A DNA stretch of 64,000 nt, taken from contig CAYJTG010000005.1 of NCBI GenBank assembly GCA_964373255.1, forward strand, positions 10,638-74,637, written 5' to 3'. Position numbers and translations under genes: made by a program. The DNA is from an uncultured archaeon (GTDB taxonomy: Archaea; Aenigmatarchaeota; Aenigmatarchaeia; GW2011-AR5). Below the pieces are notes generated by a model. It ran no database searches, was not told the DNA's origin, and worked only from the letters and a program-made list of their open reading frames with translations. Shown piece after piece: positions 5,536-57,058 of this stretch (positions are counted from its first letter, which is position 1; every line of letters begins with the position of its first letter).

Positions 5536-5685
5536 AGTAGATCAAGATAGATTTGTGTTCGCCCGCTTATATAGTGAAACCAGAATTAGGAGTCCAAGAA
5601 AATTATATGCTGATTGTTTTCTTGGGCGACTATAAATGCTTTTATATCCTTCTGTTACATTATTTTCTCTAAAGGTGTAAAATAA

Positions 5686-12734: not shown

Positions 12735-14114
12735 ATGCAGGAAATACTCGACAGGGTCCTTAATAAAATCAAACCGCTGAAAAAGGAGGATGAGCGCGTC
12801 AGGAGGTTTGTGTCAGACACCATAAGGGTTTCAAAGACCGTTTCTGGGCTGGACTGCGTCGTTGTCGGATCTATAGGCAAATTCACATGGCTCAGCAACG
12901 ACCACGACGTGGACGTATTCATGATATTTCCAAAGGAGACAAAACGGGAAGAGCTCGAGGAAAAAGGGCTCGAATACGGGAAAAAGATTGTCGAGCACCT
13001 GAAGGGAAAATCAAAGATAAAATATGCAGAGCACCCGTACACGCATGCTGTGATCAAGGGCTTTGACGTCGACATCGTGCCCTGCTACCGCATACATAAA
13101 GGCGAGCACATACAGTCAGCCGTTGACCGGTCGCCACTCCACCTGAATTATATTCTTGAGCACCTTTCGCCACGAATGCAGGACGAGGTGCGATTGCTCA
13201 AGCAGTTCTGCAAGGCCCAGGGCATCTACGGCTCTGACGCCAAGCACCTTGGCTTCTCGGGCTACATCTGCGAGCTGCTTATAATATATTACCAGTCATT
13301 TGAAGCAGCAGTTAAGGCAGCCTCGTTATGGCAGGCGCCGCAGATCGTCGACGTGCTTGGATTTACGGACAAGTCAAAATTTCCTGACCAGCCGTTGATA
13401 GTCGTGGATCCAGTCGACAAGGACAGGAACGCGGCGGCTGTCGTCAATGCAGAAAATTTCGCGAAGTTCGTGTCTGCGTGCAAAGCGTTTGTCGAGAAGC
13501 CCAGCATAAATTTTTTCAATGCAATTCCGATAACACCGTTAACGGCAAAACAAATTAAGTACATGCCCAGCAGGGGAACAAGATTTATCGCCATAAAGAT
13601 GACCGCGCCCGACGTCATCGATGACGTCCTGTATCCGCAGCTCAGGAAAGCGCTGAAACGAATATCAAACCTGATGCACCACAACGAATTCTCTGCGTTG
13701 CGTGGCTATGAGTTTGTGAGCACCAAAAACAAGAATGTGTTCCTTATATTTGAGCTGGAGGTCTTCGAGCTCCCGCCCGTCGACAACATGGAAGGCCCAC
13801 CTATATTTTCAAAGACACACACGCAAGAATTTCTTTCCAAGTATCGCGGCAGGTCATTTCTCTACCTGTCCGGCAACAAGTGGGTCGCCGAGGTTAAGCG
13901 CGAGCATAAAACACCTTTGGAACTGTTGGAGAAGTTTTTGAGGCGCGAAAAGGAAAAATTGATCGCAGACGGCATTCCTACTTATATCGCAGAAGTCATT
14001 GCCAAGTGCACGATCCTCGAACAGGAGAAGTTTTTCGACTATGTAAAATCCGATAGGTATTTGTCTGATTTTCTCAGGGAGAAGTATTTTGTCGATCTGG
14101 GAAAAGGGATGTAA
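12735..14114 (+). CDS. cca: CCA-adding enzyme (archaeal class I tRNA nucleotidyltransferase)
   Basis: Pol-beta-like N-terminus GSIGKFTWLSNDHDVDVFMIF (the archaeal CCA GS...D.D motif); 459 aa, typical of archaeal CCA. Confidence 0.85.
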   Translation: MQEILDRVLNKIKPLKKEDERVRRFVSDTIRVSKTVSGLDCVVVGSIGKFTWLSNDHDVDVFMIFPKETKREELEEKGLEYGKKIVEHLKGKSKIKYAEHPYTHAVIKGFDVDIVPCYRIHKGEHIQSAVDRSPLHLNYILEHLSPRMQDEVRLLKQFCKAQGIYGSDAKHLGFSGYICELLIIYYQSFEAAVKAASLWQAPQIVDVLGFTDKSKFPDQPLIVVDPVDKDRNAAAVVNAENFAKFVSACKAFVEKPSINFFNAIPITPLTAKQIKYMPSRGTRFIAIKMTAPDVIDDVLYPQLRKALKRISNLMHHNEFSALRGYEFVSTKNKNVFLIFELEVFELPPVDNMEGPPIFSKTHTQEFLSKYRGRSFLYLSGNKWVAEVKREHKTPLELLEKFLRREKEKLIADGIPTYIAEVIAKCTILEQEKFFDYVKSDRYLSDFLREKYFVDLGKGM

Positions 14115-15761: not shown

Positions 15762-16046
15762 CTACATTAAGGAAACGAACAGATAGAAGTTGCAAAGCAA
15801 CTTCAGTTTGCTTTTCCTTATAATCTAGACTTATTATGAAGCAAGTAAATAACCTGAATATTATAACTTGCTTCATTTACATGGAGAATCGAAGATTCTC
15901 CTGTACAATTTCGAATTCCAGGAATTCGAATTGTAATTGAAAATCTGAAGGATTTTCAAATTACAGGTGAAGCGTAGCTTCACCATGTATAGCAAACAAG
16001 AAATATAATATCTGATTCTTTTCTTGTTTAGCTATAATCCCTTCCT
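15762..16046. mobile_element. Composite element in the L37ae-rpoP spacer: family-H element interrupted by a full-length (~203 bp) XY-type hairpin element
   Basis: H left part ctacattaaggaaa...tctagactta (15762-15833), XY insert ttatgaagcaag...gtttagctata (15834-16036), H right end atcccttcct (16037-16046). XY carries 5 hairpin modules. Confidence 0.6.
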
Positions 16047-18998: not shown

Positions 18999-19129
18999 GC
19001 TCTGTTGAAAACCTATGAAAAAGCATCGACGTAGACCCTTACGTCTTATCGACGTAAGGGTCAGCTAGAGCTATCATCGAGAGATGATAGCTCTCACGTC
19101 GATGCTTTTATTGAGCATTTCAACAGAGC
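18999..19129. mobile_element. Family-A MITE-like palindromic element, copy A1 (131 bp)
   Basis: Terminal inverted repeat gctctgttgaaa / tttcaacagagc, enclosing inverted repeat aaagcatcgacgt / acgtcgatgcttt, two perfect 12-bp hairpins (gacccttacgtc-ttatc-gacgtaagggtc; agagctatcatc-gaga-gatgatagctct). Confidence 0.75.
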
Positions 19130-19898: not shown

Positions 19899-21347
19899 TC
19901 AGTACGCCTTCGCGACATAAACGACGTGCTTTGCGGGCTTGTCGCAGTAGACACAATCAGAAAACGTTTTCTCGCCCTTTTTGTACAGCGTCCCCCTTAT
20001 CTCCCATCCTTGCGTGTCCGCTTTCAGATTCTTCTCACACTTGTCAGAGCCGCACCAGTTCGTTCGTATGATACCGCCTTTCCTTGTTGCATTCTTGAGT
20101 TCGTTGAGCGTTTTTGTATCTCTTATGTTTTCATTGAGGAATTTTCTTGATTTTTCATGCATCTCATTCTGAATTGTATTAAGTATGTCAATAACAGAAT
20201 TTAATTTTTCTATTTTTATCTTTATTTTTGTGCCGTCGTTTCGCTTCACGCATGTCAATTCTTTATTTTCAACGTCCTTCGGGCCGATCTCTATCCTCAG
20301 CGGCACGCCTTTCAGCTCCCACTCGTTGAACTTGAAGCCCGCTGAATAATTGCGGTCGTCTAAGTGAGTCCTGACGCCTGATTTTTCTAATTTATCAAGC
20401 GTATTCTTTGCGTTGTCGATCACCAATTTTTCCTTTCCCTTAAACAATATAGGAATGATCACGACCTGTACAGGCGCAAGCCTTGGTGGAAGGACCGCTC
20501 CTTTATCATCGCCGTGGTGCATTATCAGTATCCCTAACTGCCTTGTCGATATGCCCCACGACGTCTGCCACACGTGCTGCTTCTTGTCGTCTTTGTCAAG
20601 AAACTGAATGTTAAATGACTTTGCAAAATTCTGGCCTAACATGTGCGTTCCAGGACCCTGTGCGATTTTTCCGTCCTGCAAGAGCGTGTCGTAGACAACA
20701 GAAAAATCTGCGCCTGCAAACGTGTCGGACTGCGGCCTTACTAAGATCAGAGGCTCGATGGCAAGGTCCTTGTATATTTCTCCATACATCTGCACGGCGT
20801 GGTCGATCATCTTCTCGGCGTCCTCTTTTGTGGCGTGGGCCGTGTGACCCTCTTGCCATAGGAATTCACGGCTTCGCAGAAACGGCTTCGTGCCTTTTGT
20901 ATCAAAGCGGACGACGTTGCACCACTGGTTGATCTTGAATGGCAGGTCCTTGTAAGAGCGAATCCACAGCGAGAACATATAATACATTATCGTTTCTGAT
21001 GTAGGGCGAATCGCATATCTTTCTTCTAATTTCTCGCCGCCCGCCTCTGTCACAATCATCGTTTCCGCCTTAAAGCCTGCAAAGTGCTCCTCTTCTTTTT
21101 TCAGTAGCCTTTCTGGTATGAGCAGAGGAAAATAGCAGTTTTTAACGTCATGTTCTTTTATCAGAGCATCAAAATTTTTTTGTATTATTTCCCAGACGGC
21201 GTAGCCCCACGGAAGAATGACGTCAAAGCCCTTCACCGGACTTCTTTGATCTATGAAATTCCCTTTGCGCACTACTTCCAGATACCAGCGGCTGAAGTCA
21301 TCACCGCGCTTTGCGGTTAATCCAAGTTCTTCTGACATGATTATCAC
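19899..21347 (-). CDS. proS: Prolyl-tRNA synthetase (archaeal/eukaryotic-type class II)
   Basis: 482 aa; class II core with C-terminal Zn-binding extension (CVYCDKPAKHVVYVAKAY); N-terminal FSRWYLEVVRKGNFIDQRSPVKGFDVILPWGYAVWE typical of archaeal ProRS. Confidence 0.9.
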   Translation of the reverse strand: MIIMSEELGLTAKRGDDFSRWYLEVVRKGNFIDQRSPVKGFDVILPWGYAVWEIIQKNFDALIKEHDVKNCYFPLLIPERLLKKEEEHFAGFKAETMIVTEAGGEKLEERYAIRPTSETIMYYMFSLWIRSYKDLPFKINQWCNVVRFDTKGTKPFLRSREFLWQEGHTAHATKEDAEKMIDHAVQMYGEIYKDLAIEPLILVRPQSDTFAGADFSVVYDTLLQDGKIAQGPGTHMLGQNFAKSFNIQFLDKDDKKQHVWQTSWGISTRQLGILIMHHGDDKGAVLPPRLAPVQVVIIPILFKGKEKLVIDNAKNTLDKLEKSGVRTHLDDRNYSAGFKFNEWELKGVPLRIEIGPKDVENKELTCVKRNDGTKIKIKIEKLNSVIDILNTIQNEMHEKSRKFLNENIRDTKTLNELKNATRKGGIIRTNWCGSDKCEKNLKADTQGWEIRGTLYKKGEKTFSDCVYCDKPAKHVVYVAKAY

Positions 21348-21421
21348 TTAAAGTATAACATAACAGTTCTTACTTTATTTTTGATTGTATCGATAAATAA
21401 AGCTGATTTGTAGAAATAATC

Positions 21422-21712
21422 TTAATTTATCCCAAGCATTACCTTGATCTCTTGTGAGGGTTTCCATTGCGGTAAAAAAACAATTTGTATTGATACGTCT
21501 TTTACGCCTTCTATCCGTTTCAGTTTTTCCTTTATGGTCTCGATGAGCACAGGGCCATAAGGACAAGCAGGCGTGGTAAATGTCATTTTTATATTTACCT
21601 TGTCCGTATCGATGTCAATGCCGTAAATAAGCTCCAGCGTCCACACGTCTATATTAATCTCTGGGTCCATGCACTCTTTCAGGACATCTATTACCTGTTG
21701 CATCGTTGTCAT
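21422..21712 (-). CDS. DUF59/MIP18-family Fe-S assembly protein
   Basis: 96 aa; VIDVLKECMDPEINIDVWTLELIYGIDI...VNIKMTFTTPACPYGPVLIETIKEKL matches the DUF59 (PaaD-like) core. Confidence 0.6.
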   Translation of the reverse strand: MTTMQQVIDVLKECMDPEINIDVWTLELIYGIDIDTDKVNIKMTFTTPACPYGPVLIETIKEKLKRIEGVKDVSIQIVFLPQWKPSQEIKVMLGIN

Positions 21713-21752
21713 GATATAACACTAGATAGCAATTCTTATATGATTATTTGAA

Positions 21753-22061
21753 TGGGCTTGGCAGGATTTGAACCTGCGTCACAAGCTCCCAATGAGCATC
21801 AAATTATAGCTCTACAAGGAAAGAAACAAGATACAAGAAAGAACGAAGTTCTTTCTGTACAGCAAGAGCAAAGCTCTTGCTTGTATTACTTCCTTGTGAG
21901 CTATATGTGAAACCGGAAAAACATGTCCGGATTCTTTTCTGGTTTCACTATAAGCTCGGATCATAGTCGTATGAGATGCGAAGCATCTCTATGCTCTAAC
22001 CAAATTGTCCCACCTTCCGCTTTGATGCAGCTTTCTGGAAAGGTGCCTAGACTACAAGCCC
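21753..22061 (-). tRNA. tRNA-like gene with about 235 nt of structured intervening sequence (candidate multi-intron tRNA; anticodon not resolved, loop ATTGGGA suggests Pro/UGG)
   Basis: Minus strand: 5' GGGCTTG-TA-GTCTAGG... and 3' ...GTGAC-GCAGG-TTCAAAT-CCTGC-CAAGCCC-A. 7-bp acceptor helix, canonical T arm, discriminator A. Interior has several perfect hairpins. Confidence 0.5.
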
Positions 22062-22123
22062 TATAGGGATAATGGGTAAAAAGAATTATTAAAAGGCTCT
22101 CTCACAACTAGAACAGTGGTTTA

Positions 22124-22249
22124 ATGGTGAAAAAGAAAACAAAGAAATCCAACAAGAAGGCTGCTATGTGCGCCTGCGGCTGCAAAATGTCTATTAAGAA
22201 TTGCAAATGCTGCGGCATGGGTGGAAAGAAAACCTGTAAGTGCTGCTGA
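22124..22249 (+). CDS. Small Lys/Cys-rich peptide, 41 aa (9 Cys; metallothionein-like or RiPP-precursor-like), not in ORF track
   Basis: Hand translation: MVKKKTKKSNKKAAMCACGCKMSIKNCKCCGMGGKKTCKCC. Paralogue of the peptide at 24375-24527. Confidence 0.45.
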   Translation: MVKKKTKKSNKKAAMCACGCKMSIKNCKCCGMGGKKTCKCC

Positions 22250-22262
22250 GCCTATCATTCAA

Positions 22263-22514
22263 TTAGAGCCGCATCGATTTATTTATCAGGTTATATTTTT
22301 GACTCTTTGATAGTTTCTTGAACGCCACTTCTGCCCTAAGCGCTTCGCCCTTCGTTTCGTGCGCCCAGTATGCAATAATTTCGACCGGAAGCCTGCTTCT
22401 AGTATATTTTGAGGCTTTTCCTTCATTGTGTAGCTTCAGTCTTCTCTTCAAGTTATTGGTATAACCTGTGTAAAATGATCCGTCCTTGCACTTCAAGACG
22501 TATACGTAGAACAT
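22263..22514 (-). CDS. GIY-YIG nuclease family protein (UPF0213-like)
   Basis: MFYVYVLKCKDGSFYTGYTNNLKRRLKLHNEG matches the GIY..YIG..N...R...H motif. Track ORF (to 22553) extends into MITE copy A4, so the internal Met at 22514 is taken as start. Confidence 0.65.
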   Translation of the reverse strand: MFYVYVLKCKDGSFYTGYTNNLKRRLKLHNEGKASKYTRSRLPVEIIAYWAHETKGEALRAEVAFKKLSKSQKYNLINKSMRL

Positions 22515-22524
22515 AAAATTACCT

Positions 22525-22655
22525 GCTCTGTAGAAATGCTCGATAAAGAGCATCGACGTAGACCTATACGTCTCTTGACGTATAGGTCAGCTAGAGATAT
22601 CATCGATAGATGATATCTCTCACGTCGATGCTCTTGCATAGGTTTTCTACAGAGC
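22525..22655. mobile_element. Family-A MITE-like element, diverged copy A4
   Basis: Same architecture as A1. Both internal hairpins carry compensatory substitutions that keep perfect pairing. Confidence 0.65.
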
Positions 22656-22707
22656 AAAATTACCTAATTATATACTATATATTCGGAAAGGATTAAGTCT
22701 GATTTCT

Positions 22708-22815
22708 CAGGAAGGGATTAAGTCTAGACACACAGAAAGCAAAGCTTTCTGGTGCACCAAAGAACCTTTGGTTCTTTGCGTGTTATAAGGGAAACCCAGG
22801 TTTCCCTTAATGTAG
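22708..22815 (-). repeat. Family-H hairpin-string element, copy H3 (reverse orientation)
   Basis: Reverse complement of the 51654-51761 element: cattaagggaaacccaggtttccctta / aaagaaccaaaggttcttt / cagaaagctttgctttctg / tctagacttaatcccttcctg. Confidence 0.6.
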
Positions 22816-22817
22816 AG

Positions 22818-23029
22818 TGGGCTCGCCCGGAATTTCACCGAAGCAGCATAATACTGCGATAGCCACCTAAGGATGGTAATGCCTTAGGAAGGATATCCTT
22901 CCTCGGCTTTGAACCGGGGTCTCATGCTTTTCAGTTTCTTTACTTGATTTTTCTGACTTTCTTGATTAAACTTCTTTTCAAAAGAAGTTTACCCTAAGCA
23001 CGGATCCTAACCAAACTAGACTACGAGCC
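22818..23029 (-). tRNA. Second tRNA-like gene with ~140 nt structured interior; 3' T-arm non-canonical (uncertain)
   Basis: Minus strand 5' GGGCTCG-TA-GTCTAGTTTGGTTAGGATCC... and 3' ...CGAGCCC-A (7-bp acceptor complement 212 nt apart). 5' 15 nt nearly identical to the 21753-22061 gene. Internal CCCGG-TTCAAAG-CCGAG T-arm-like segment. Interior has perfect hairpins (aaacttctttt-gaaa-agaagttt; gaaggatatccttc). Confidence 0.3.
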
Positions 23030-23069
23030 CATAAATTCTACATAGTTTATTAGATTTTTAAGGGGGTGA

Positions 23070-23212
23070 GACACTGTCAACTTAAGGGGTACATAATGGA
23101 ATCGAAGATTCCACTTGTACAGGTGAAGCTTTGCTTCACCATGTATTAGCTATCGCTAATACCCCAGAAAAGGCTGTTGCCTATAGGCAACAGCCGTTAA
23201 GTTGACAGTGCC
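23070..23212. mobile_element. Family-Z TIR element, copy Z1 (internal module replaced)
   Basis: TIRs cactgtcaacttaag / cttaagttgacagtg; internal ggctgttgcc-tatag-gcaacagcc hairpin. Central segment carries the ggaatcgaagattcc and caggtgaagctttgcttcacc modules seen at 15880-16000. Confidence 0.6.
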
Positions 23213-26079: not shown

Positions 26080-26121
26080 ATAATTAAATAAATTAAATAT
26101 TTGATTTTGGGAGGTAGTTGC

Positions 26122-29100
26122 ATGGCAAAAATAACAAAAGTTCGAAAAAGAGACGGAAGAATTGTAAATTTTGGCAAAGACAAGATAACAAACGCTATAT
26201 TCAAGGCCGTCCAGGCAGTAGGCGGGTCTGACAAAACTATAGCAGAAAGCCTTGCAAATCAGGTCATGGAAATTCTGGAAAAGAATATGCCACCGGGCGC
26301 TATTCCAAACATAGAGGATATACAGGATATTGTCGAGAGGGTTCTGATAGAATCCGGCCATGCAAAGACAGCAAAGGCCTACATACTTTACAGGAATGAG
26401 CACGCCAGAGTAAGGGAAGAGCAGAAAAGAATATTAGGCGGCAAAACAACAAAGCTCCCCTTCAGCATGAATGCCCTGCAGGTTCTTGCAAAGCGCTACC
26501 TTGTAAGAAACAGGGACGGTAATGTTATTGAATCGCCTGATGATATGTTCGAGAGGGTTGCTGATTCTTTGGCAAGCGTGGAGTACGAGTATGGAAAAAC
26601 AAACGAGGAAGTCGAAAAATTTTCCCAGCAGTTCAATGAAATCATGGCAAGTTTTGAGTTCATACCAGCTGGGCGCACAATGACAAACGCGGGCTCGCCG
26701 ACCCCTATAGTGCCTAATTGCATAGTCCTTCATATTGGCGACAACATGGATAACATATTTCAGACACTTAAAGAAGCCTCGCTTCTTCAGCAGGCAGGCT
26801 CTGGGTTGGGATTTCCGTTCCACCTGCTAAGGCCGGCCGGCACCGTTGCAAAGCGCTCCCGTGGGGTAGCCTCCGGTCCGGTCTCTTTCCTGCGCGTTTA
26901 CAATAATGCATTCGGCGTGATAAAACAGCAAAACAGGCACGGCGCGAACATGGGCGTTATGCGCGTCGACCATCCGGATATACTTGAATTCATACACGCA
27001 AAGGACGTCGAGGGCGAGATAAGGAACTTCAACATCTCCGTTGCAATTACAGATGAATTCATGCAGAAGGCACGCGACAACGATTCAACGCCTTGGATAT
27101 GCGAGTGGAACGGCGAAAAGATGAAGCCAAGGCGCGTTTACAGGGATTCAAACGGCATTGTTCTCGACATCAAGGAGGAGACAATGACGGCAAAAGAAAT
27201 CTTCATGGAAATTGTGTCGTCGGCATGGCAGACCGGCGAACCTGGAATAATCTTCATCGACAAAATAAATGATACAAATCCGTTGCCCGGTCTTGGTCGA
27301 ATAGAGGCGTGTAATCCTTGTGTGACCGGCGATACATTAGTAAGCACGGAACACGGAATGATGAAAATATCTGATTTGGCAGAGAAACATGGAAAAGGTG
27401 GCGTATCTGTAATTTGTGACAATAGGATGCCTATAACAATATATGAATCTGATGGAACCAAAGTCCTGATATACAAAGGCACAAAAGGCACACAAATCAA
27501 TAACGTGAGTGCTGCATGGAAATCTGGCTTCAAAGATGTATTGAAAATTGAAACAGAATCGGGGTACGAGCTTGAAGCCACAGCAGATCATAAGATAATG
27601 ACAACAAAAGGATGGATAGATGTCGAAAACCTTACAAAAGAACACGAAATTCTTATTCAATCAGGAGAAGGAAGATTCTCTGTAAACAACCAAATTCCAT
27701 TTGAAGTGCAGAATGAATTTATTGGAGAAAATGGCAGAACTTATAAATATAATTTTCCTCGTCAATGGAACAGGGAATTGGGGCAACTTCTTGGCTGGAT
27801 CGTAGGTGATGGCTGGATAAGAGACAAGGAAAAGGAGTGCGATAAAGAAATAATGACACATATAAAGTCGATAGGAAACATGATTTATGGCTCTGAAAAA
27901 CGAGAAATTGAAAGAATAAGAAATACACACCATCTCAATTATGGTTCACGACGCTTTGTAGAATACCTTATGAAGCTTGGGCTCAAGACAACAGGCGCAG
28001 AAAATAAAGAAGTACCAAAGAGCATTTTCACAGCACCAAAAGACGCTGTATCAGGCTTCCTTCAAGGTTTGTTTTCATCAGATGGCACAGTAATGCTAGA
28101 CGAAAAACATGGCAACTATTATATAAGATTGACAACGAAATCGATAAAACTTGCAAAACAGGTTCAGACACTTCTTCTGAACTTCGGAATTAAGTCAAGA
28201 ATATACGACAGGAGCAGGCCGCCAAAAAAGAACCTATTTACGTATGAAACAAAATCAGGAGAAAAAAGAACTTATGCATCTGACGGAATTCTGTTTGAAG
28301 TGCATGTACATGGCGATACAATAATAAAATTTAATGAACAAATAGGATTTCTATGCAGTAAAAATAAAGAGAAAATAGAAAAGATACTGAAAAAGAATCT
28401 AAGAGACGATAAATTTACAGACAAAGTAAAATATGTCGAGTACATTGGCAAGAAAGATGTCTACGATCTCACAGAACCAGCGACGCACTCTTTCATAGCA
28501 AATGGTATTGTGGTATCAAATTGTGGTGAGCAATTTCTCCACGACGGCGATGTCTGCAATCTTGGTTCGATAAATCTGGAAAAATTTGTAAAAGATGGCA
28601 AAATAGATTTTGATCGATTAAGGCATGTCACACGTTTAGCTGTGCGTATGCTTGACAACGTTGTCGATATCACAGCAGCGCCTGCCGACCGTGTCAATCA
28701 CATGTTCCGCGCAAACCGCAGGGTCGGTTTGGGCATAATGGGCTTTGCGGATATGCTCTATCAACTGAAGATAGGTTATAATGCAGAAGAGGGCGCAAAG
28801 ACAGCAGAAAAGGTCATGAACTGCATTCAAGAATCTGCCCACCAAATGTCGCAAGAGCTTGCTGAGGAGAAAGGCGTGTTTCCAAACTGGGAGAAGAGCG
28901 TATTTGCAAAGAAAGGTATAAAGATGCGAAACGCCGCGCTCACAAACATCGCCCCGACAGGAACTATATCCATGGTCTTCGACGTTTCCGGGGGCGTAGA
29001 ACCTTATTTTGCCTTGGCTTACCACTACCAGGGAATTCTGGGGGGCGCAACCCAGCTCTACTACGTCAACAAGCACCTGAGAAAGACACTGGAAGAGTAT

Positions 29101-29589
29101 GGTTTATACAACGATGTAATAATGAAGCGCATATTTGAGGAAGGAACGCTGCAGCGTATAGAAGAAATCCCTGATGATTTGAAGCGTGTGTTTGTCACGG
29201 CCATGGATATTTCATCCGACGACCACATACGGGTGCAGGCGGCTTTCCAGAAATACGTTGACAACAGCATATCAAAGACGTGCAACTTCCCTGAGGACGC
29301 TACAAAAGAGGACGTCTTTCAGGGATATCTGCTCGCCTGGCAGCTCGGCTGCAAGAGCTGCACCGTGTACAGAAACAACTCACGCAGGCTGCAAGTGCTG
29401 AATCTTAACAAGCAGAAACAGGAGGAAGTTCAGGAAGAGGAGTACGAGCCGCAGCAGCAGAAGATAGCGGTCGCAGCCACAAACGGTTCTACACATTACA
29501 CGACGTGTCCAGAGTGTGACACCGTGCTGGAGCAAAAAGAAGGGTGTTCTTCTTGCCCTCAGTGCGGCTGGGGATTGTGCAGCGTGTAA
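26122..29589 (+). CDS. nrdJ: Class II (B12-dependent) ribonucleotide reductase NrdJ, with N-terminal ATP cone, one intein, and C-terminal Zn ribbon
   Basis: ATP cone [21 protein letters not shown]. Catalytic motif NP|CGEQ split by the intein. C-terminal CPECD...CPQCG. GGAGGT 7 nt upstream of ATG 26122. Extein ~760 aa. Confidence 0.85.
27319..28521 (+). mobile_element. Intein (401 aa) with LAGLIDADG homing-endonuclease domain, inserted before the catalytic Cys of the RNR NPCGE motif
   Basis: N-extein ...EACNP | [11 protein letters not shown] (Cys1, block A) ... [11 protein letters not shown] and [12 protein letters not shown] (two LAGLIDADG-type motifs) ... IANGIVVSN | CGEQF (terminal Asn, +1 Cys). 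Confidence 0.8.
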
Positions 29590-34980: not shown

Positions 34981-35167
34981 GCTCTGTAGAAAACCTATGC
35001 AAGAGCATCGACGTGAGAGCTATTATCTTCTAAGATAACAAAGTTATCTTGAAGATTCAGGTTGACTTTGTCAACCATGAATCTGTCGATAATAGCTCTA
35101 GCTGACCTATACGTCAAGAGACGTATAGGTCTACGTCGATGCTCTTTATCGTGCATTTCTACAGAGC
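34981..35167. mobile_element. Family-A MITE-like element, copy A5 with inverted core plus a 70-bp insert
   Basis: Same TIRs and cgtcgatgc inverted repeats as A1. Internal hairpin pair is in reverse-complement order relative to A1/A2/A3. Also carries an extra insert ttctaagataacaaagttatcttgaa... Confidence 0.65.
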
Positions 35168-39912: not shown

Positions 39913-40097
39913 GGAGATACAGGCATAGTCATGCAAGGAAATAATCAGTATATAATTATACCCTTGCTGACTATATGTGAAACCAGTCATAGCATGTCCA
40001 GATTATTTACTGGTTTCACTATAAACCGCATTACAAACATCTTTATACAACATAGTTCTAACTTCTAACAGAAAACGATAAAAAATTATGAAAATGA

Positions 40098-42448: not shown

Positions 42449-42616
42449 ACTACATTAAGGGAAAAGAACAGATAGAAGTTGCTTCGCAACTTCAGTTTGT
42501 CTTTCCCTTAAAATGCTCAAAGAACCGAAGGTTCTTTGACATCTGCAAAGAAGCATAGCTTCTTTGAGATTCCGAAAAGCTTTGCTTTCTGAGCATCTAG
42601 ACTTAATCCTTTCCTG
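42449..42616 (+). repeat. Family-H hairpin-string element, copy H1, abutting the gltX stop codon
   Basis: ctacattaagggaaa[...gaagttgc-ttcg-gcaacttc...]tttccctta / aaagaaccgaaggttcttt / ...tctagacttaatcctttcctg. Confidence 0.6.
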
Positions 42617-46650: not shown

Positions 46651-46846
46651 GCACTGTCAACTTATTATGAAGCAAGTAAATAATCTGGATATTATAGCAA
46701 ACAAGAAATATAATACCTGATTCTTTTCTTGTTTAGCTATAAGGGTGGTTAGCCATTGCTAACCACCCAGAAAAGGCTGTTGCCAAAGCAGATAGACGCA
46801 CTTTAGTGCGTCAGTTTGTTTCAACAGCCGCTAAGTTGACAGTGCC
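46651..46846. mobile_element. Family-Z TIR element, copy Z2, with two nested insertions
   Basis: TIRs gcactgtcaactta / taagttgacagtgcc. A 79-bp XY-type element (ttatgaagcaagtaaataatctg...gtttagctata) inserted after caactta. A second hairpin module (agatagacgcactttagtgcgtcagtttgtttc) lies inside the ggctgttgcc...aacagcc loop. Confidence 0.6.
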
Positions 46847-48910: not shown

Positions 48911-49041
48911 GCTCTGTTGAAAACCTATGAAAAAGCATCGACGTAGACCCTTACGTCTTATCGACGTAAGGGTCAGCTAGAGCTATTGTCAAAAGACAAT
49001 AGCTCTCACGTCGATGCTTTTATTGAGCATTTCAACAGAGC
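48911..49041. mobile_element. Family-A MITE-like element, copy A2, filling the S24e-S27ae spacer
   Basis: Identical TIRs and outer stems to A1. Second hairpin carries compensatory change (ctattgtc-aaaa-gacaatag versus ctatcatc-gaga-gatgatag). Confidence 0.75.
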
Positions 49042-51653: not shown

Positions 51654-51761
51654 CTACATTAAGGGAAACCCAGGTTTCCCTTATAACACGCAAAGAACCA
51701 AAGGTTCTTTGGTGCACCAGAAAGCTTTGCTTTCTGTGTGTCTAGACTTAATCCCTTCCTG
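51654..51761 (+). repeat. Family-H hairpin-string element, copy H2, immediately upstream of rpoE
   Basis: cattaagggaaacccaggtttccctta / aaagaaccaaaggttcttt / cagaaagctttgctttctg / tctagacttaatcccttcctg. Confidence 0.6.
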
Positions 51762-52016
51762 AAATTTTTGCTTAAGCTTTTTTAAAAAAGCTTACTAGAC
51801 TTGCCTTCCCTCACTTGCCTGTTTGTTCTCATGAGTAGTTAGAAATTTTAAAATCATGAAGAACATATCTTTCTTGAGAGTAAGAGGTTTTAAAGCTTTC
51901 TTTCATCGGTATTGAAAAATTAACATTCCACCATTTTTCTACAGTATCTCCGAAAGTTGGATTACTGCCTCTTTGCAGTAATCCTCTACCGAGGTATATG
52001 CCACAAGGCGTATACC

Positions 52017-52307: not shown

Positions 52308-52546
52308 CGAATAAACCCGATTCCAACTATCATAGAAAACTTTTTAAAGACGTTTCTGTTTTTTGTTCTGTATGTTAAGTTAATGTGATCCAAATAAATA
52401 ATCGTGATACTAAATTTGGATCACAGTACATAGCGAAACAAAGTTTCGCTTGTACAGGTAAAGCTTTGCTTTACCATGTACTGTGCACAAGGAATGTAAT
52501 ATACCGATTCATTCCTTGTAGCACATTAAAAGAAAACAGAGCCCGT

Positions 52547-56263: not shown

Positions 56264-56351
56264 GCACTGTCAACTTAAGGGTGGTTAGCTGTTGCTAACC
56301 ACCCAGAAAAGGCTGTTGCCGATAGGCAACAGCCGTTAAGTTGACAGTGCC
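56264..56351. mobile_element. Family-Z TIR element, compact canonical copy Z3 (88 bp)
   Basis: ggcactgtcaacttaag / gggtggttagc-tgtt-gctaaccaccc / agaaaa / ggctgttgcc-gatag-gcaacagcc / gttaagttgacagtgcc. Two perfect hairpins inside perfect 16-bp TIRs. Confidence 0.7.
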
Positions 56352-56422
56352 ATCGGAGGCAAACTTGTTTTTACTTGTCTTTTCTTGAGAATTTCTTACT
56401 TGATTTTCTTTCTTAAAGAAAA

Positions 56423-57058
56423 TCACTTGAAAATCTCGCCCGTTTCCTCGCTCCACCAGACAAGATCTAAGTGAGCAAATGGTATCCCAATGGAATTTGC
56501 AAATTCCTTCATCTTCTGCTCGATTTCTAAATATTTCTTTTCTGTCAACGATTTTGGGATTTCTAAAATAACGCCATATTTTACCAGGTTTTTCAATATG
56601 TGGCGGTCTAAAATGGCAATGTCATCGCCAAATCCCACATTCCTCAGAAAATGGCTCGCCTCTTTCATGCCAATACCTTTGACATTCTTAATCAGCCATT
56701 CTCGTAGGGCAAATACGTTAGGCAGGGCGTTCATTTTGTCTTTTACTTTCAATTCGTCATTATTCGTGAACAATTGCCTTGCCCGTTCCAGATATTTAGA
56801 CTTGTTTTCATTGAACCTCACAGACGCCATCCATTTCTTCATTTCATTTGATGAGCCGTTATACAATAATCCAGTTTCCTTCAATTTCTCGATCGTGCGC
56901 CAGCACGACTTTGCCTTGCTCTGCGGCGTCAGCAGGCAAAAACAGAGCTCGCCAAATACGTGCCTGTCGTCCTGCTGAAAATTATCGCGGAAATCTTCGA
57001 GGCGGGCTTCTATCGCCTGTTTTTTTTGTTCATATTTCTGTTTTAATTCGGATATCAT
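56423..57058 (-). CDS. 8-oxoguanine DNA glycosylase/AP lyase, archaeal Ogg2-like (HhH-GPD)
   Basis: HhH-GPD motif VKGIGMKEASHFLRNVGFGDDIAILDRHI (helix-hairpin-helix, Gly-rich loop, catalytic Asp). 211 aa. Confidence 0.6.
   Translation of the reverse strand: MISELKQKYEQKKQAIEARLEDFRDNFQQDDRHVFGELCFCLLTPQSKAKSCWRTIEKLKETGLLYNGSSNEMKKWMASVRFNENKSKYLERARQLFTNNDELKVKDKMNALPNVFALREWLIKNVKGIGMKEASHFLRNVGFGDDIAILDRHILKNLVKYGVILEIPKSLTEKKYLEIEQKMKEFANSIGIPFAHLDLVWWSEETGEIFK

What the first reader, a model, noticed from the sequence alone, without database searches (positions are those of the whole stretch)
21753..22061. tRNA-like gene whose ~235-nt interior is built from the same mobile hairpin modules found elsewhere in the window
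On the minus strand the locus has a perfect 7-bp acceptor helix (GGGCTTG...CAAGCCC), discriminator A, canonical T arm (GCAGG-TTCAAAT-CCTGC) and a 5' GTAG-TCTAG D-region. Between them lie ~235 nt containing at least four perfect hairpins (gagatgc-ttcg-gcatctc; gtgaaacc...ggtttcac; gcaagagc-ttt-gctcttgc; agaaagaac-ttcg-gttctttct). The gtgaaacc...ggtttcac module (plus 21901-21953) recurs nearly verbatim at 39971-40023 in an unrelated intergenic region. An ATTGGGA loop next to GCTTG suggests a UGG (Pro) anticodon, but I could not place a contiguous anticodon stem. If this is a tRNA, it must carry more than one intron at non-canonical positions. This resembles intron-rich tRNAs of some archaea, with the intervening sequences being transposable hairpin elements. 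It could also be a novel tRNA-like-ended ncRNA.
Basis: partly seen in the sequence, partly recalled or inferred. Interest (0 to 1): 0.8.

Follow-up and report, generated by a model that had tools for sequence, protein, structure and literature searches.

The report
Three-intron archaeal proline tRNA gene
This is a proline tRNA gene of a tiny (DPANN) archaeon, cut into four pieces by three protein-spliced introns; the largest intron has been swollen by a small jumping DNA element that itself carries another, which explains why standard tRNA finders miss the gene.

Summary
Window 22061-21753 (minus strand) has a perfect 7-bp acceptor helix, discriminator A and a canonical T arm around 235 nt of hairpins.

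Removing three segments gives a 74-nt tRNA-Pro(UGG). ARAGORN accepts it, and it matches intron-free orthologues in related Aenigmatarchaeota MAGs.
- I1: 42 nt, position 15/16.
- I2: 33 nt, position 22/23.
- I3: 160 nt, position 33/34.

Each junction obeys the archaeal bulge-helix-bulge rule: a 4-bp helix, then a cut after two unpaired bases on both strands. I1 and I2 lie at the same positions in relatives' tRNA-Pro genes, and their helices covary. The gene also carries a private compensatory pair (U6-A68) across 300 nt, so it is under selection.

I3 is found only in this gene. 144 of its 160 nt are a copy of a dispersed two-hairpin repeat. That repeat has about 47 copies in other metagenome contigs and 5-7 in the window, sits between TA dinucleotides in TTAA-like sites, and has empty sites. 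The I3 copy itself contains a 50-nt double-hairpin insert. What remains is a plausible 14-nt ancestral intron.

"Built from mobile modules" holds for I3 only. This is a new member of a known kind, with a nested-repeat twist. No RNA data were available.

The parts
22086..22094 (-). TATA-box-like TTTTAATAA centred about 29 nt upstream of tRNA position 1; a putative archaeal promoter
   Evidence: Read directly from the sequence. The spacing fits archaeal promoters (own knowledge). Not tested.
22047..22061 (-). Exon 1, GGGCTTGTAGTCTAG: tRNA positions 1-15 (acceptor 5' strand, U8 A9, D-stem 5' strand, A14 G15)
   Evidence: Identical or near-identical to the 5' ends of intron-free tRNA-Pro in L002 and L005 and of the paralogue at 23030.
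22005..22046 (-). Intron 1, 42 nt, position 15/16; HBh' motif: GUCU AG|G ... GGAC AA|U with inner helix CACCUU(U)CC/GGAAGGUG
   Evidence: appears in the unconstrained MFE once I3 is removed. Introns at the same position and with the same 3' end GGGACAA occur in L021 1677 and L021 3773.
21996..22004 (-). Exon 2, TTTGGTTAG: a 9-nt micro-exon (D loop with G18 G19, A21, G22)
   Evidence: The joined exons E1+E2+E3 reproduce exactly the uninterrupted D arm GTCTAGTTTGGTTAGGATCC of the neighbouring paralogue.
21963..21995 (-). Intron 2, 33 nt, position 22/23; central helix GGUU/GACU, bulges AG|A and AU|G, inner hairpin GAGAUGC-UUC-GCAUCUC
   Evidence: Four homologous introns in L021 and L023 have the 3' tetramer GGCU, AACU, GGCC or GACU, and all of these pair with GGUU.
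21952..21962 (-). Exon 3, GATCCGAGCTT: positions 23-33 (D-stem 3' strand, C26, anticodon-stem 5' strand CGAGC, U32 U33)
   Evidence: Matches GGATCCGAGGTTTGGGA of L002 and L005.
21792..21951 (-). Intron 3, 160 nt, position 33/34; relaxed hBH/BHL motif: outer helix UCC/GGA(G), central helix GAGC/GCUC, cuts UU|A and AU|U
   Evidence: No homologous intron was found in relatives. L021 3773 has a 37/38 intron instead.
21807..21950 (-). Copy of the dispersed two-hairpin ('2HP') element, TAG...CTA, flanked by TA (21952-21951) and TA (21806-21805)
   Evidence: Removing it leaves AATTTGATGCTCAT, a 14-nt intron.
21834..21883 (-). 50-nt double-hairpin insert (CAAG-hairpin-CTGTACAG-hairpin-CTTG) in the loop of the element's second hairpin, flanked by TA..TA
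   Evidence: Empty loop in L066 (GGAAATAATATCTTGTTTCTTTCC). L026 has the same unit at the same site, with the two hairpins in the reverse order.
21753..21791 (-). Exon 4, TGGGAGCTTGTGACGCAGGTTCAAATCCTGCCAAGCCCA: positions 34-73 (anticodon UGG, G37, anticodon-stem 3' strand, variable loop, T arm, acceptor 3' strand, A73); no CCA encoded
   Evidence: A CCA-adding enzyme is encoded at 12735-14114.
22818..23030 (-). Companion hidden gene: tRNA-Pro(AGG) with introns at 37/38 (63 nt) and 59/60 (76 nt), separated from the finding by a GIY-YIG gene
   Evidence: ARAGORN accepts the spliced product.
39923..40024 (-).
   Evidence: (94 bits, E = 1e-16).

Best explanation
The locus is a functional gene for tRNA-Pro(UGG) of an Aenigmatarchaeota-like DPANN archaeon. 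It is split into four exons of 15, 9, 11 and 39 nt by three introns of the archaeal protein-spliced (bulge-helix-bulge) type, at positions 15/16, 22/23 and 33/34.

Inferred pathway:
1. The gene is transcribed from its own TATA-like promoter as a precursor of about 310 nt.
2. The tRNA splicing endonuclease cuts two bases 3' of each 4-bp central helix, on both strands of each motif.
3. A ligase joins the exons, presumably one intron at a time, because exon 2 is only 9 nt.
4. The CCA-adding enzyme encoded in the same window adds CCA.

Introns 1 and 2 are old and shared with relatives. Intron 3 was most likely a 14-nt loop-type intron (AATTTGATGCTCAT). It then received, at a TTAA-like site, a 144-nt copy of a dispersed two-hairpin miniature element that duplicates TA. 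That copy already carried, or later received, a 50-nt double-hairpin insert. The intron tolerates this cargo because the splice motif is made by the tRNA-specific flanks, not by the element.
For: Shown:
- The spliced product is called tRNA-Pro(tgg) by ARAGORN; the unspliced locus is not.
- Junctions set by homology to intron-free tRNA-Pro of L002 and L005 and to the paralogue's D arm each fall exactly 2 nt after a 4-bp helix on both strands: GUCU/GGAC, GGUU/GACU, GAGC/GCUC. The chance of 4 standard pairs at a fixed place is about (6/16)^4 = 0.02 per intron.
- With I3 removed, unconstrained folding gives the acceptor helix, T arm, anticodon stem and both D-arm splice motifs.
- Relatives have introns at 15/16 and 22/23 in tRNA-Pro genes. 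The intron-side tetramer varies (GACU, GGCU, AACU, GGCC) but always pairs with GGUU.
- Twelve spliced or intron-free tRNA-Pro sequences fit one cloverleaf: 99.6% of cells paired, 13 of 21 pairs with compensatory change, 0/500 shuffles as good. This gene alone has U6-A68 where the others have C-G, with the two bases 300 nt apart in the DNA.
- Context is archaeal: ProRS lies 400 nt downstream, and TBP, MCM and a CCA-adding enzyme are in the window.
- The I3 cargo belongs to a family found in 51 metagenome stretches, of which about 47 copies carry the family's flanks and second hairpin. Its hairpins covary strongly: 95.4% paired, 11 pairs with double changes.
- Element flanks are T|TA in 40/47 copies and TA|A in 28/36.
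- The motif CTAGACTTAATCCYTTCC is empty at four window sites. It is filled, with TA on both sides of the insert, at 15825. L026 has the element in the opposite orientation at the same TA.
- Other copies have no splice-motif flanks beyond chance: 16/35 against 14.0 +/- 2.4.

From the literature:
- Archaeal tRNA genes hold up to three introns (PMC8450103; PMC4033280).
- DPANN lineages show increased tRNA gene disruption and probably unrecognised disrupted genes (PMC5829648).
Against: - No RNA data, so splicing, its order and the mature ends are inferred.
- I3 lacks an inner helix next to its 5' cut (loop-type motif). It therefore needs a broad-specificity endonuclease. None of 70 window ORFs is an endonuclease or ligase, so this could not be checked.
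- The global MFE of the precursor uses other pairings: -117.2 kcal/mol against -111.0 with the three central helices enforced.
- I3 contains a T5 run (GTTTTTCC) that might terminate archaeal transcription.
- I3 has no counterpart in relatives.
- The 9-nt exon requires ordered cut-and-join.
- The flanking TA is palindromic, so duplication and element-borne termini cannot be told apart at a single site.
- No transposase was found in the window. The element's ends are only weakly inverted repeats.
Confidence: 0.85

Rival explanations
1. The gene is a dying tRNA gene. Introns 1 and 2 are genuine, but the 144-nt element landed in the anticodon-loop intron and now blocks splicing or transcription. 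The locus would be a recent pseudogene, with proline decoding carried by another copy.
For: I3 is unique to this genome. It lacks an inner helix at the 5' cut, holds a T5 run, and offers a competing GCUC (CACAUAUAGCUCAC) and strong alternative folds. The rest of the genome was not available to look for another UGG gene.
Against: All exons are intact. The central helix GAGC/GCUC and the outer helix are perfect. The gene carries a private compensatory pair, U6-A68. The element's hairpins fold on themselves and leave the splice helix free in the constrained fold, which costs only 6 kcal/mol.
Confidence: 0.08
2. The repeat in I3 is not a DNA transposon but a mobile intron. It would spread at the RNA level, or by intron transposition as proposed for Thermoproteales, and would carry its own splice motif.
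For: Similar introns at different tRNA positions are known in Thermoproteales (PMC4033280). In this lineage one intron core sits at three D-loop positions in three genes. The I3 5' cut coincides with the element's 5' end.
Against: The other copies are intergenic; none of those examined lies inside a tRNA gene. Their flanks form a 4-bp helix no more often than permuted flanks: 16/35 against 14.0 +/- 2.4. The 3' half of the I3 splice helix lies in a 13-nt tail outside the element. Stems are almost purely Watson-Crick, with 7 G-T against 14 A-C, so there is no strand bias. Insertions occur in both orientations at one TA.
Confidence: 0.07
3. The locus encodes a stable non-coding RNA of about 300 nt with tRNA-like ends, such as a tmRNA-like or viral tRNA-like molecule, rather than a spliced tRNA.
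For: The acceptor helix and T arm enclose a highly structured interior, as in tmRNA.
Against: ARAGORN finds no tmRNA, and Rfam finds nothing even at E <= 10 except a sub-threshold partial tRNA match. Pair 3:70 is G-C, not G-U. The interior contains every missing tRNA segment in the right order, bounded by splice motifs. Relatives have the same exons without the interior.
Confidence: 0.02
4. The interior is a self-splicing group I intron in a tRNA gene, as in cyanobacteria or Patescibacteria.
For: A size of about 235 nt is in the range of small group I introns in tRNAs.
Against: There is no match to Rfam group I models at E <= 10. The exons are interrupted at three places, not one. The organism is archaeal. 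The splice sites fit the protein-endonuclease motif.
Confidence: 0.01

Closest known systems
Multi-intron tRNA genes of Thermoproteales (e.g. Pyrobaculum calidifontis), found with SPLITS / tRNAscan-SE 2.0
   Same: Up to three short protein-spliced introns per gene, at non-canonical positions including the D arm, with relaxed BHB motifs (HBh', hBH/BHL). Ordinary tRNA finders miss them. Related introns occur at different positions (PMC8450103, PMC4033280).
   Different: The lineage is different (DPANN, Aenigmatarchaeota-like). One intron is 160 nt, against the usual <100 nt. There is a 9-nt micro-exon. Most of the long intron is a copy of an intergenic dispersed repeat rather than of another tRNA intron.
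Disrupted tRNA genes of other DPANN archaea (ARMAN-2/Micrarchaeota with epsilon2 endonuclease; lineages with alpha4 endonuclease bearing the L3 loop)
   Same: DPANN genomes have many non-canonical and multiple introns, and incomplete tRNA sets that suggest undetected disrupted genes (PMC5829648, PMC3239211).
   Different: I found no description of this gene family, of its conserved 15/16 + 22/23 intron pair, or of Aenigmatarchaeota specifically. The endonuclease type of this organism could not be examined.
TA-duplicating miniature inverted-repeat elements (IS630 / Tc1-mariner derived MITEs; Correia-type elements)
   Same: Short (about 100 nt), non-coding, many dispersed copies, flanked by TA, either orientation, mostly intergenic, with nested insertions.
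   Different: Terminal inverted repeats are weak. The conserved feature is two internally covarying hairpins with conserved loops. No partner transposase was seen. Family assignment was not tested.
Double-hairpin elements of fungal mitochondrial DNA (Allomyces and others)
   Same: Units of about 50 nt made of two adjacent hairpins, scattered in intergenic regions and introns, and thought to be mobile (cited in PMC4478555, PMC7218506).
   Different: The compartment is different (organelle versus archaeal chromosome). There is no sequence relationship, and here the hairpins flank a 6-nt palindrome. This is a resemblance only.

Membership tests
tRNA (proline isoacceptor, archaeal) | Cloverleaf with 7-bp acceptor, 4-bp D, 5-bp anticodon and 5-bp T stems, and a 7-nt anticodon loop | tested here: met
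   ARAGORN calls the 74-nt spliced sequence tRNA-Pro(tgg). All 21 pairs are standard.
tRNA (proline isoacceptor, archaeal) | Conserved tertiary nucleotides: U8, A14, G18 G19, U33, T-loop UUCAAAU | tested here: met
   All are present in the spliced sequence and invariant in the 12-sequence alignment.
tRNA (proline isoacceptor, archaeal) | Proline identity: G35 G36 (anticodon NGG), G37, A73, G-C-rich first acceptor pairs | tested here: met
   UGG, G37, A73 and G1-C72, G2-C71, G3-C70 are read from the spliced sequence. That these are the identity elements is from my own knowledge.
tRNA (proline isoacceptor, archaeal) | Evolutionary constraint on the pairings (covariation with orthologues) | tested here: met
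   13 of 21 pairs show compensatory change. U6-A68 is private to this gene.
tRNA (proline isoacceptor, archaeal) | Expressed, spliced and aminoacylated | not testable with these tools
   No RNA data. ProRS and a CCA-adding enzyme are encoded nearby.
Archaeal BHB (endonuclease-spliced) intron | 4-bp central helix with a cut two nucleotides 3' of it on both strands | tested here: met
   I1 GUCU AG| / GGAC AA|; I2 GGUU AG| / GACU AU|; I3 GAGC UU| / GCUC AU|. The rule was first checked on the L004 intron, TTGG TT| / CCAA AT|.
Archaeal BHB (endonuclease-spliced) intron | Two 3-nt bulges each closed by a flanking helix (strict hBHBh') | tested here: not met
   All three are relaxed forms. I1 and I2 have the inner helix but almost no outer helix (HBh'). 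I3 has the outer helix but a multi-helix loop on the inner side (hBH/BHL). Relaxed forms are accepted members, but only with broad-specificity enzymes (PMC5829648).
Archaeal BHB (endonuclease-spliced) intron | Intron position and motif conserved in related genes | tested here: met
   Met for I1 and I2. Not met for I3, which has no homologue in the loci fetched.
Archaeal BHB (endonuclease-spliced) intron | Cognate splicing endonuclease of broad specificity, and an RtcB-type ligase, in the genome | not testable with these tools
   Neither is among 70 window ORFs scanned against Pfam. The rest of the genome was not available.
Miniature inverted-repeat transposable element (TA-duplicating) | Many dispersed, similar, non-coding copies | tested here: met
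   About 47 copies in 51 metagenome stretches, against an expected handful of chance hits (my rough estimate). There are 5-7 copies in the window.
Miniature inverted-repeat transposable element (TA-duplicating) | Target-site duplication shown by filled versus empty sites | tested here: met
   CTAGACT-TA-ATCC is empty at four sites and filled at 15825 with TA on both sides. L026 has an insertion in the opposite orientation at the same TA. Flank consensus is T|TA...TA|A. Caveat: TA is palindromic.
Miniature inverted-repeat transposable element (TA-duplicating) | Terminal inverted repeats matching an autonomous element with a transposase | tested here: inconclusive
   The ends TAGTGAAAC and TAGTTCTAC (reverse complement of the 3' end) share 6 of 9 bases. 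There is no transposase in the window. The loci were not searched for one.
tmRNA | G3-U70 alanine identity pair, tag reading frame, pseudoknots | tested here: not met
   Pair 3:70 is G-C. ARAGORN and Rfam give no tmRNA match.
Group I intron | Conserved P3-P7 catalytic core | tested here: not met
   No Rfam group I match at E <= 10 over 21650-22150.

The most novel reading that the evidence does not exclude
Aenigmatarchaeota-like DPANN archaea carry a previously undescribed, actively spreading family of TA-targeting palindromic mini-elements: a two-hairpin unit of about 100 nt and a double-hairpin unit of about 50 nt that nests inside it. These elements can lodge inside endonuclease-spliced tRNA introns. 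That would give a concrete DNA-level route by which archaeal tRNA introns grow, and perhaps arise, and by which tRNA genes vanish from automated annotation. The same lineage also seems to use a tRNA-Pro with A34, an anticodon class reported absent from Archaea.
Probability: 0.45. Interest if true: 0.6.

Novelty: new member of a known kind. Interest (0 to 1): 0.45.

Why it matters
1. Annotation. Two adjacent proline tRNA genes, with five introns in all, are invisible to ARAGORN and Rfam. Relatives show the same pattern. DPANN 'missing tRNA' counts, which are often read as genome reduction or host dependence, are therefore partly artefacts.

2. Intron evolution. The locus shows three layers side by side in one gene family:
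- old introns conserved in position;
- one intron core found at three different positions within the D loop;
- an intron enlarged about tenfold by a nested repeat.
This is useful material for the long-running question of how archaeal tRNA introns are gained and moved.

3. Enzyme specificity. A 9-nt micro-exon and a 160-nt loop-type intron are demanding substrates. They predict a broad-specificity endonuclease and ordered splicing in this lineage.

Tried and rejected
- Direct detection failed. ARAGORN with and without intron mode gave nothing, or a false 1.2-kb 'intron' joining the two genes. Rfam gave nothing at gathering threshold, on the region or on the whole window.
- Rfam's sub-threshold tRNA alignment (16.7 bits, 21757-21818) uses a second CTTGTAG and a D arm GAGC...GCTC. 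I rejected it: there is no G18 G19 and no anticodon arm, the 'D arm' is the 3' end of the repeat element, and 7-nt repeats are common here.
- My first guess for the anticodon-stem 5' strand was CAAGC at 21880. It was wrong. The true strand is CGAGC in exon 3 (with a G-U pair), found by comparison with L002.
- C/D-box or H/ACA guide RNA in I3: no boxes seen by eye. Hammerhead or other ribozymes: no Rfam match.
- Exact-protein look-ups of the source contig failed.
- There are no copies of the element in viral contigs.
- A search for further hidden tRNAs found nothing beyond the two Pro genes. I used a T-arm/acceptor scan and BLAST of 18 relatives' tRNAs. This search is weak for genes with T-loop introns.
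- Strand bias of wobble pairs in the element gave no sign of an RNA-level structure on either strand (7 G-T against 14 A-C among 755 cells).

Full report
**1. What is in the sequence.**

Read on the minus strand, 22061-21753 starts with GGGCTTGTAGTCTAG and ends with GACGCAGGTTCAAATCCTGCCAAGCCCA.
- The 7-bp acceptor pairing is perfect.
- The T arm is canonical. It is the only T arm in 64 kb that also has a matching acceptor partner upstream.
- The 309 nt fold far better than shuffles (z = -6.95).
- ARAGORN finds no tRNA or tmRNA in the whole window.
- Rfam finds nothing at gathering threshold.
- A permissive Rfam scan of the region gives only a sub-threshold partial tRNA match and chance hairpin hits. 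There is no group I intron and no tmRNA.

**2. Whose genome.**

The neighbouring 482-aa protein is an archaeal-type prolyl-tRNA synthetase. It is 69-75% identical to those of Aenigmatarchaeota MAGs. The window also encodes:
- TBP, MCM and a class-I CCA-adding enzyme;
- FttA/aCPSF1 and a proteasome beta subunit;
- GluRS, Kae1 and Sua5;
- an intein-bearing ribonucleotide reductase.

It is core chromosome of a DPANN archaeon. It holds no splicing endonuclease, RtcB or transposase among 70 ORFs.

**3. Finding the exons.**

Relatives carry ordinary tRNA-Pro genes near ProRS or the same small GIY-YIG gene. L002 has GGGCTCATAGTCTAGCTTGGTTAGGATCCGAGGTTTGGGACCTTGTGGCCCCGGTTCAAATCCGGGTGAGCCCA.

L004 3527-3676 has a tRNA-Pro(UGG) with one D-loop intron, next to an intron-free paralogue. 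That pair let me check the cut rule: exon TTGG TT| and intron CCAA AT|, that is, a 4-bp helix and then a cut after two unpaired bases on each strand.

Laying the L002 sequence on the window gives four exons:
- E1 GGGCTTGTAGTCTAG (22061-22047);
- E2 TTTGGTTAG (22004-21996);
- E3 GATCCGAGCTT (21962-21952);
- E4 TGGGAGC...CAAGCCCA (21791-21753).

The introns are 42, 33 and 160 nt, at positions 15/16, 22/23 and 33/34. ARAGORN calls the joined 74-mer tRNA-Pro(tgg).

An independent check lies 750 nt upstream. A second gene missed by the tRNA finders, at 23030-22818, has the uninterrupted D arm GTCTAGTTTGGTTAGGATCC. This is exactly what E1+E2+E3 produce.

**4. The splice motifs.**

At junctions fixed by homology, each intron shows the rule.
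- I1: GUCU AG|G ... GGAC AA|U, with an 8-bp inner helix.
- I2: GGUU AG|A ... GACU AU|G, with an inner hairpin.
- I3: GAGC UU|A ... GCUC AU|U, with a 3-bp outer helix (UCC/GGA).

Four standard pairs at a fixed place have a chance of about 0.02, so three in a row are not accidental.

With I3 removed, unconstrained RNAfold returns the acceptor helix, T arm, anticodon stem and both D-arm motifs. For the full precursor, the fold with all three central helices enforced is 6 kcal/mol above the MFE.

All three are relaxed motifs (HBh' for I1 and I2, hBH/BHL for I3). In characterised archaea such motifs need endonucleases with a specificity loop (PMC5829648).

**5. Comparative support.**

GIY-YIG homologues led to loci L021 and L023.
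- Both tRNA-Pro genes of L021 have introns at 15/16 and 22/23, plus one at 37/38.
- Two genes of L023 have 22/23 plus 59/60 introns.

In the five 22/23 introns, the intron tetramer is GACU, GGCU, AACU, GGCC or GACU, and each pairs with the exon GGUU. The inner hairpins differ in sequence but stay paired.

Twelve spliced or intron-free tRNA-Pro sequences fit one cloverleaf: 99.6% of cells paired, and 13 of 21 pairs with compensatory changes (0/500 shuffles as good; slid controls 18-50% paired). The window gene alone has U6-A68 instead of C-G. The two bases lie in exons 1 and 4, about 300 nt apart in the DNA. This argues that the interrupted gene is still under selection as a tRNA.

**6. What intron 3 is made of.**

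A metagenome scan with the hairpin's arms returned 51 stretches. I reckon a handful would be expected by chance.

(T)TA-TAG-TGAAACCNN...NNGGTTTCAC-ATATAG-NNN-(A/C)CAAGG...CCTTG(T/G)-A-N'N'N'-CTA-TA(A).

Its properties:
- Both hairpins covary (95.4% paired, 11 pairs with double changes).
- They are almost purely Watson-Crick, with no wobble bias to either strand.
- Their loops are conserved.
- A covariance model finds the full copy at 39923-40024 and partial or variant copies at 15831-16037, 46692-46773, 52452-52529 and 5569-5635.

I3 equals A + the element + ATTTGATGCTCAT. Counting the flanking TA once leaves AATTTGATGCTCAT, a 14-nt loop closed by GAGC/GCUC. That is an ordinary size for a small archaeal intron.

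**7. Is the element mobile, and at what level?**

- Flanks are T|TA in 40 of 47 copies and TA|A in 28 of 36, which makes a TTAA-like site.
- The 18-nt motif CTAGACTTAATCCYTTCC is intact at four window sites. At 15825 it reads CTAGACT-TA-[element]-TA-ATCCCTTCC.
- In L026 the element sits at the same TA of the same motif in the opposite orientation.
- Copies of the element themselves hold 50-nt double-hairpin inserts flanked by TA, at two different places. One place is between the hairpins (L026, L047, L072, and L051 at the next TA). The other is in the second loop (window I3 and L026, with the two hairpins in opposite order). Uninterrupted copies show the empty sites.
- The other copies have no splice-motif flanks beyond chance: 16/35 against 14.0 +/- 2.4 for permuted flanks.

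I therefore read it as a DNA-level, TA-duplicating miniature element nested in a pre-existing intron, not as a mobile intron. The weak points are that TA is palindromic, the terminal inverted repeats are poor, and no transposase was found.

**8. Comparison with what is known.**

- Archaeal tRNA genes with two or three non-canonical introns are well known in Thermoproteales. Three is the stated maximum (PMC8450103; PMC4033280).
- tRNA introns are described there as mostly under 100 nt.
- DPANN lineages are reported to have increased tRNA gene disruption and probably unrecognised disrupted genes (PMC5829648).

The locus is thus a new member of a known kind. It reaches the known maximum of three introns, has an unusually long intron and a 9-nt micro-exon, and shows that intron length can jump through nested repeat insertion. 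I found no description of that last point, though absence from the searchable library is weak evidence.

**9. Limits.**

There are no expression data. The organism's endonuclease, ligase and full tRNA set were out of reach. The pseudogene alternative for I3 therefore stays open at roughly one in twelve.

Noticed in passing
window 22818-23030 (-); also L004 3830-3903, L021 1670-1895, L023 1739 and 2297: A second tRNA gene missed by the tRNA finders: tRNA-Pro with anticodon AGG (A34), interrupted at 37/38 (63 nt) and in the T loop at 59/60 (76 nt). A34 proline genes recur in at least three related genomes, one of them intron-free, so the A is not a splicing artefact. Archaea are reported to lack all ANN anticodons and any A34 deaminase (PMC8007984).
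   Followed up: partly
window 22727(-), 42597(+), 51742(+), 61711(-), interrupted at 15825(+); L023, L024, L026: A conserved unit made of a hairpin (TAAGGGAAACC..GGTTTCCCTTA), TAAT and CTAGACTTAATCCYTTCC recurs upstream of genes (GIY-YIG here, rpoB in L026). It looks promoter- or leader-like and is a repeated landing site of the two-hairpin element.
   Followed up: partly
window-wide; e.g. 15786-15984, 19034-19094, 22561-22620, 22733-22809, 23122-23195, 35104-35131, 42475-42566, 48946-49006, 51660-51794, 52432-52475, 56279-56425: The hairpin scan returned 68 perfect hairpins (stem >= 8, loop 3-6; one stem can be listed twice with different loop lengths), against 2-10 in Markov simulations. They are nearly all in intergenic clusters and are often paired around a 6-nt palindrome (TGTACA, GTGCAC, GCATGC). 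Stems differ between copies yet stay perfect. What maintains them is unexplained.
   Followed up: partly
L021 1685-1752, L023 1756-1799, L004 3550-3625: One intron core (AGCCCTTTT...GCGCTTGCGGAAAAAG) sits at 15/16, 17/17a and 20a/21 of three tRNA-Pro genes. Each copy has a different 3' tetramer (GGAC, CTAG, CCAA) that pairs with a different exon tetramer (GTCT, CTAG, TTGG). This looks like intron sliding or transposition within the D loop.
   Followed up: partly
L021 2274-2288 and 3773-3787; L022 592 and 2091: The first 15 nt of tRNA-Pro(UGG) (GGGCTCGTCGTTTAG), plus the start of an intron, are duplicated on the far side of an oppositely oriented AAA_14/DUF4143 ATPase gene. This recalls the tRNA-fragment scars of integrated elements described for Caldiarchaeum (PMC3293823).
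   Followed up: no
window 19899-23030; L004, L005: The ProRS gene and two tRNA-Pro genes are kept together, with a small GIY-YIG nuclease gene and a DUF59/FeS-assembly gene between them. tRNA-Pro genes lie near ProRS in L004 and L005, and the tRNA-Pro / GIY-YIG / tRNA-Pro order recurs in L005.
   Followed up: no
L066 (about 100 nt beyond the 3' end of its two-hairpin copy), L055, L047: Other copies of the two-hairpin element lie within 5-100 nt of tRNA genes. The L066 tRNA has another 59/60 T-loop intron, so T-loop introns seem common in this lineage.
   Followed up: no
window 26101-29589 (+): The class II-like ribonucleotide reductase carries an intein with a LAGLIDADG homing-endonuclease domain. 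An NrdR-like regulator precedes it.
   Followed up: no
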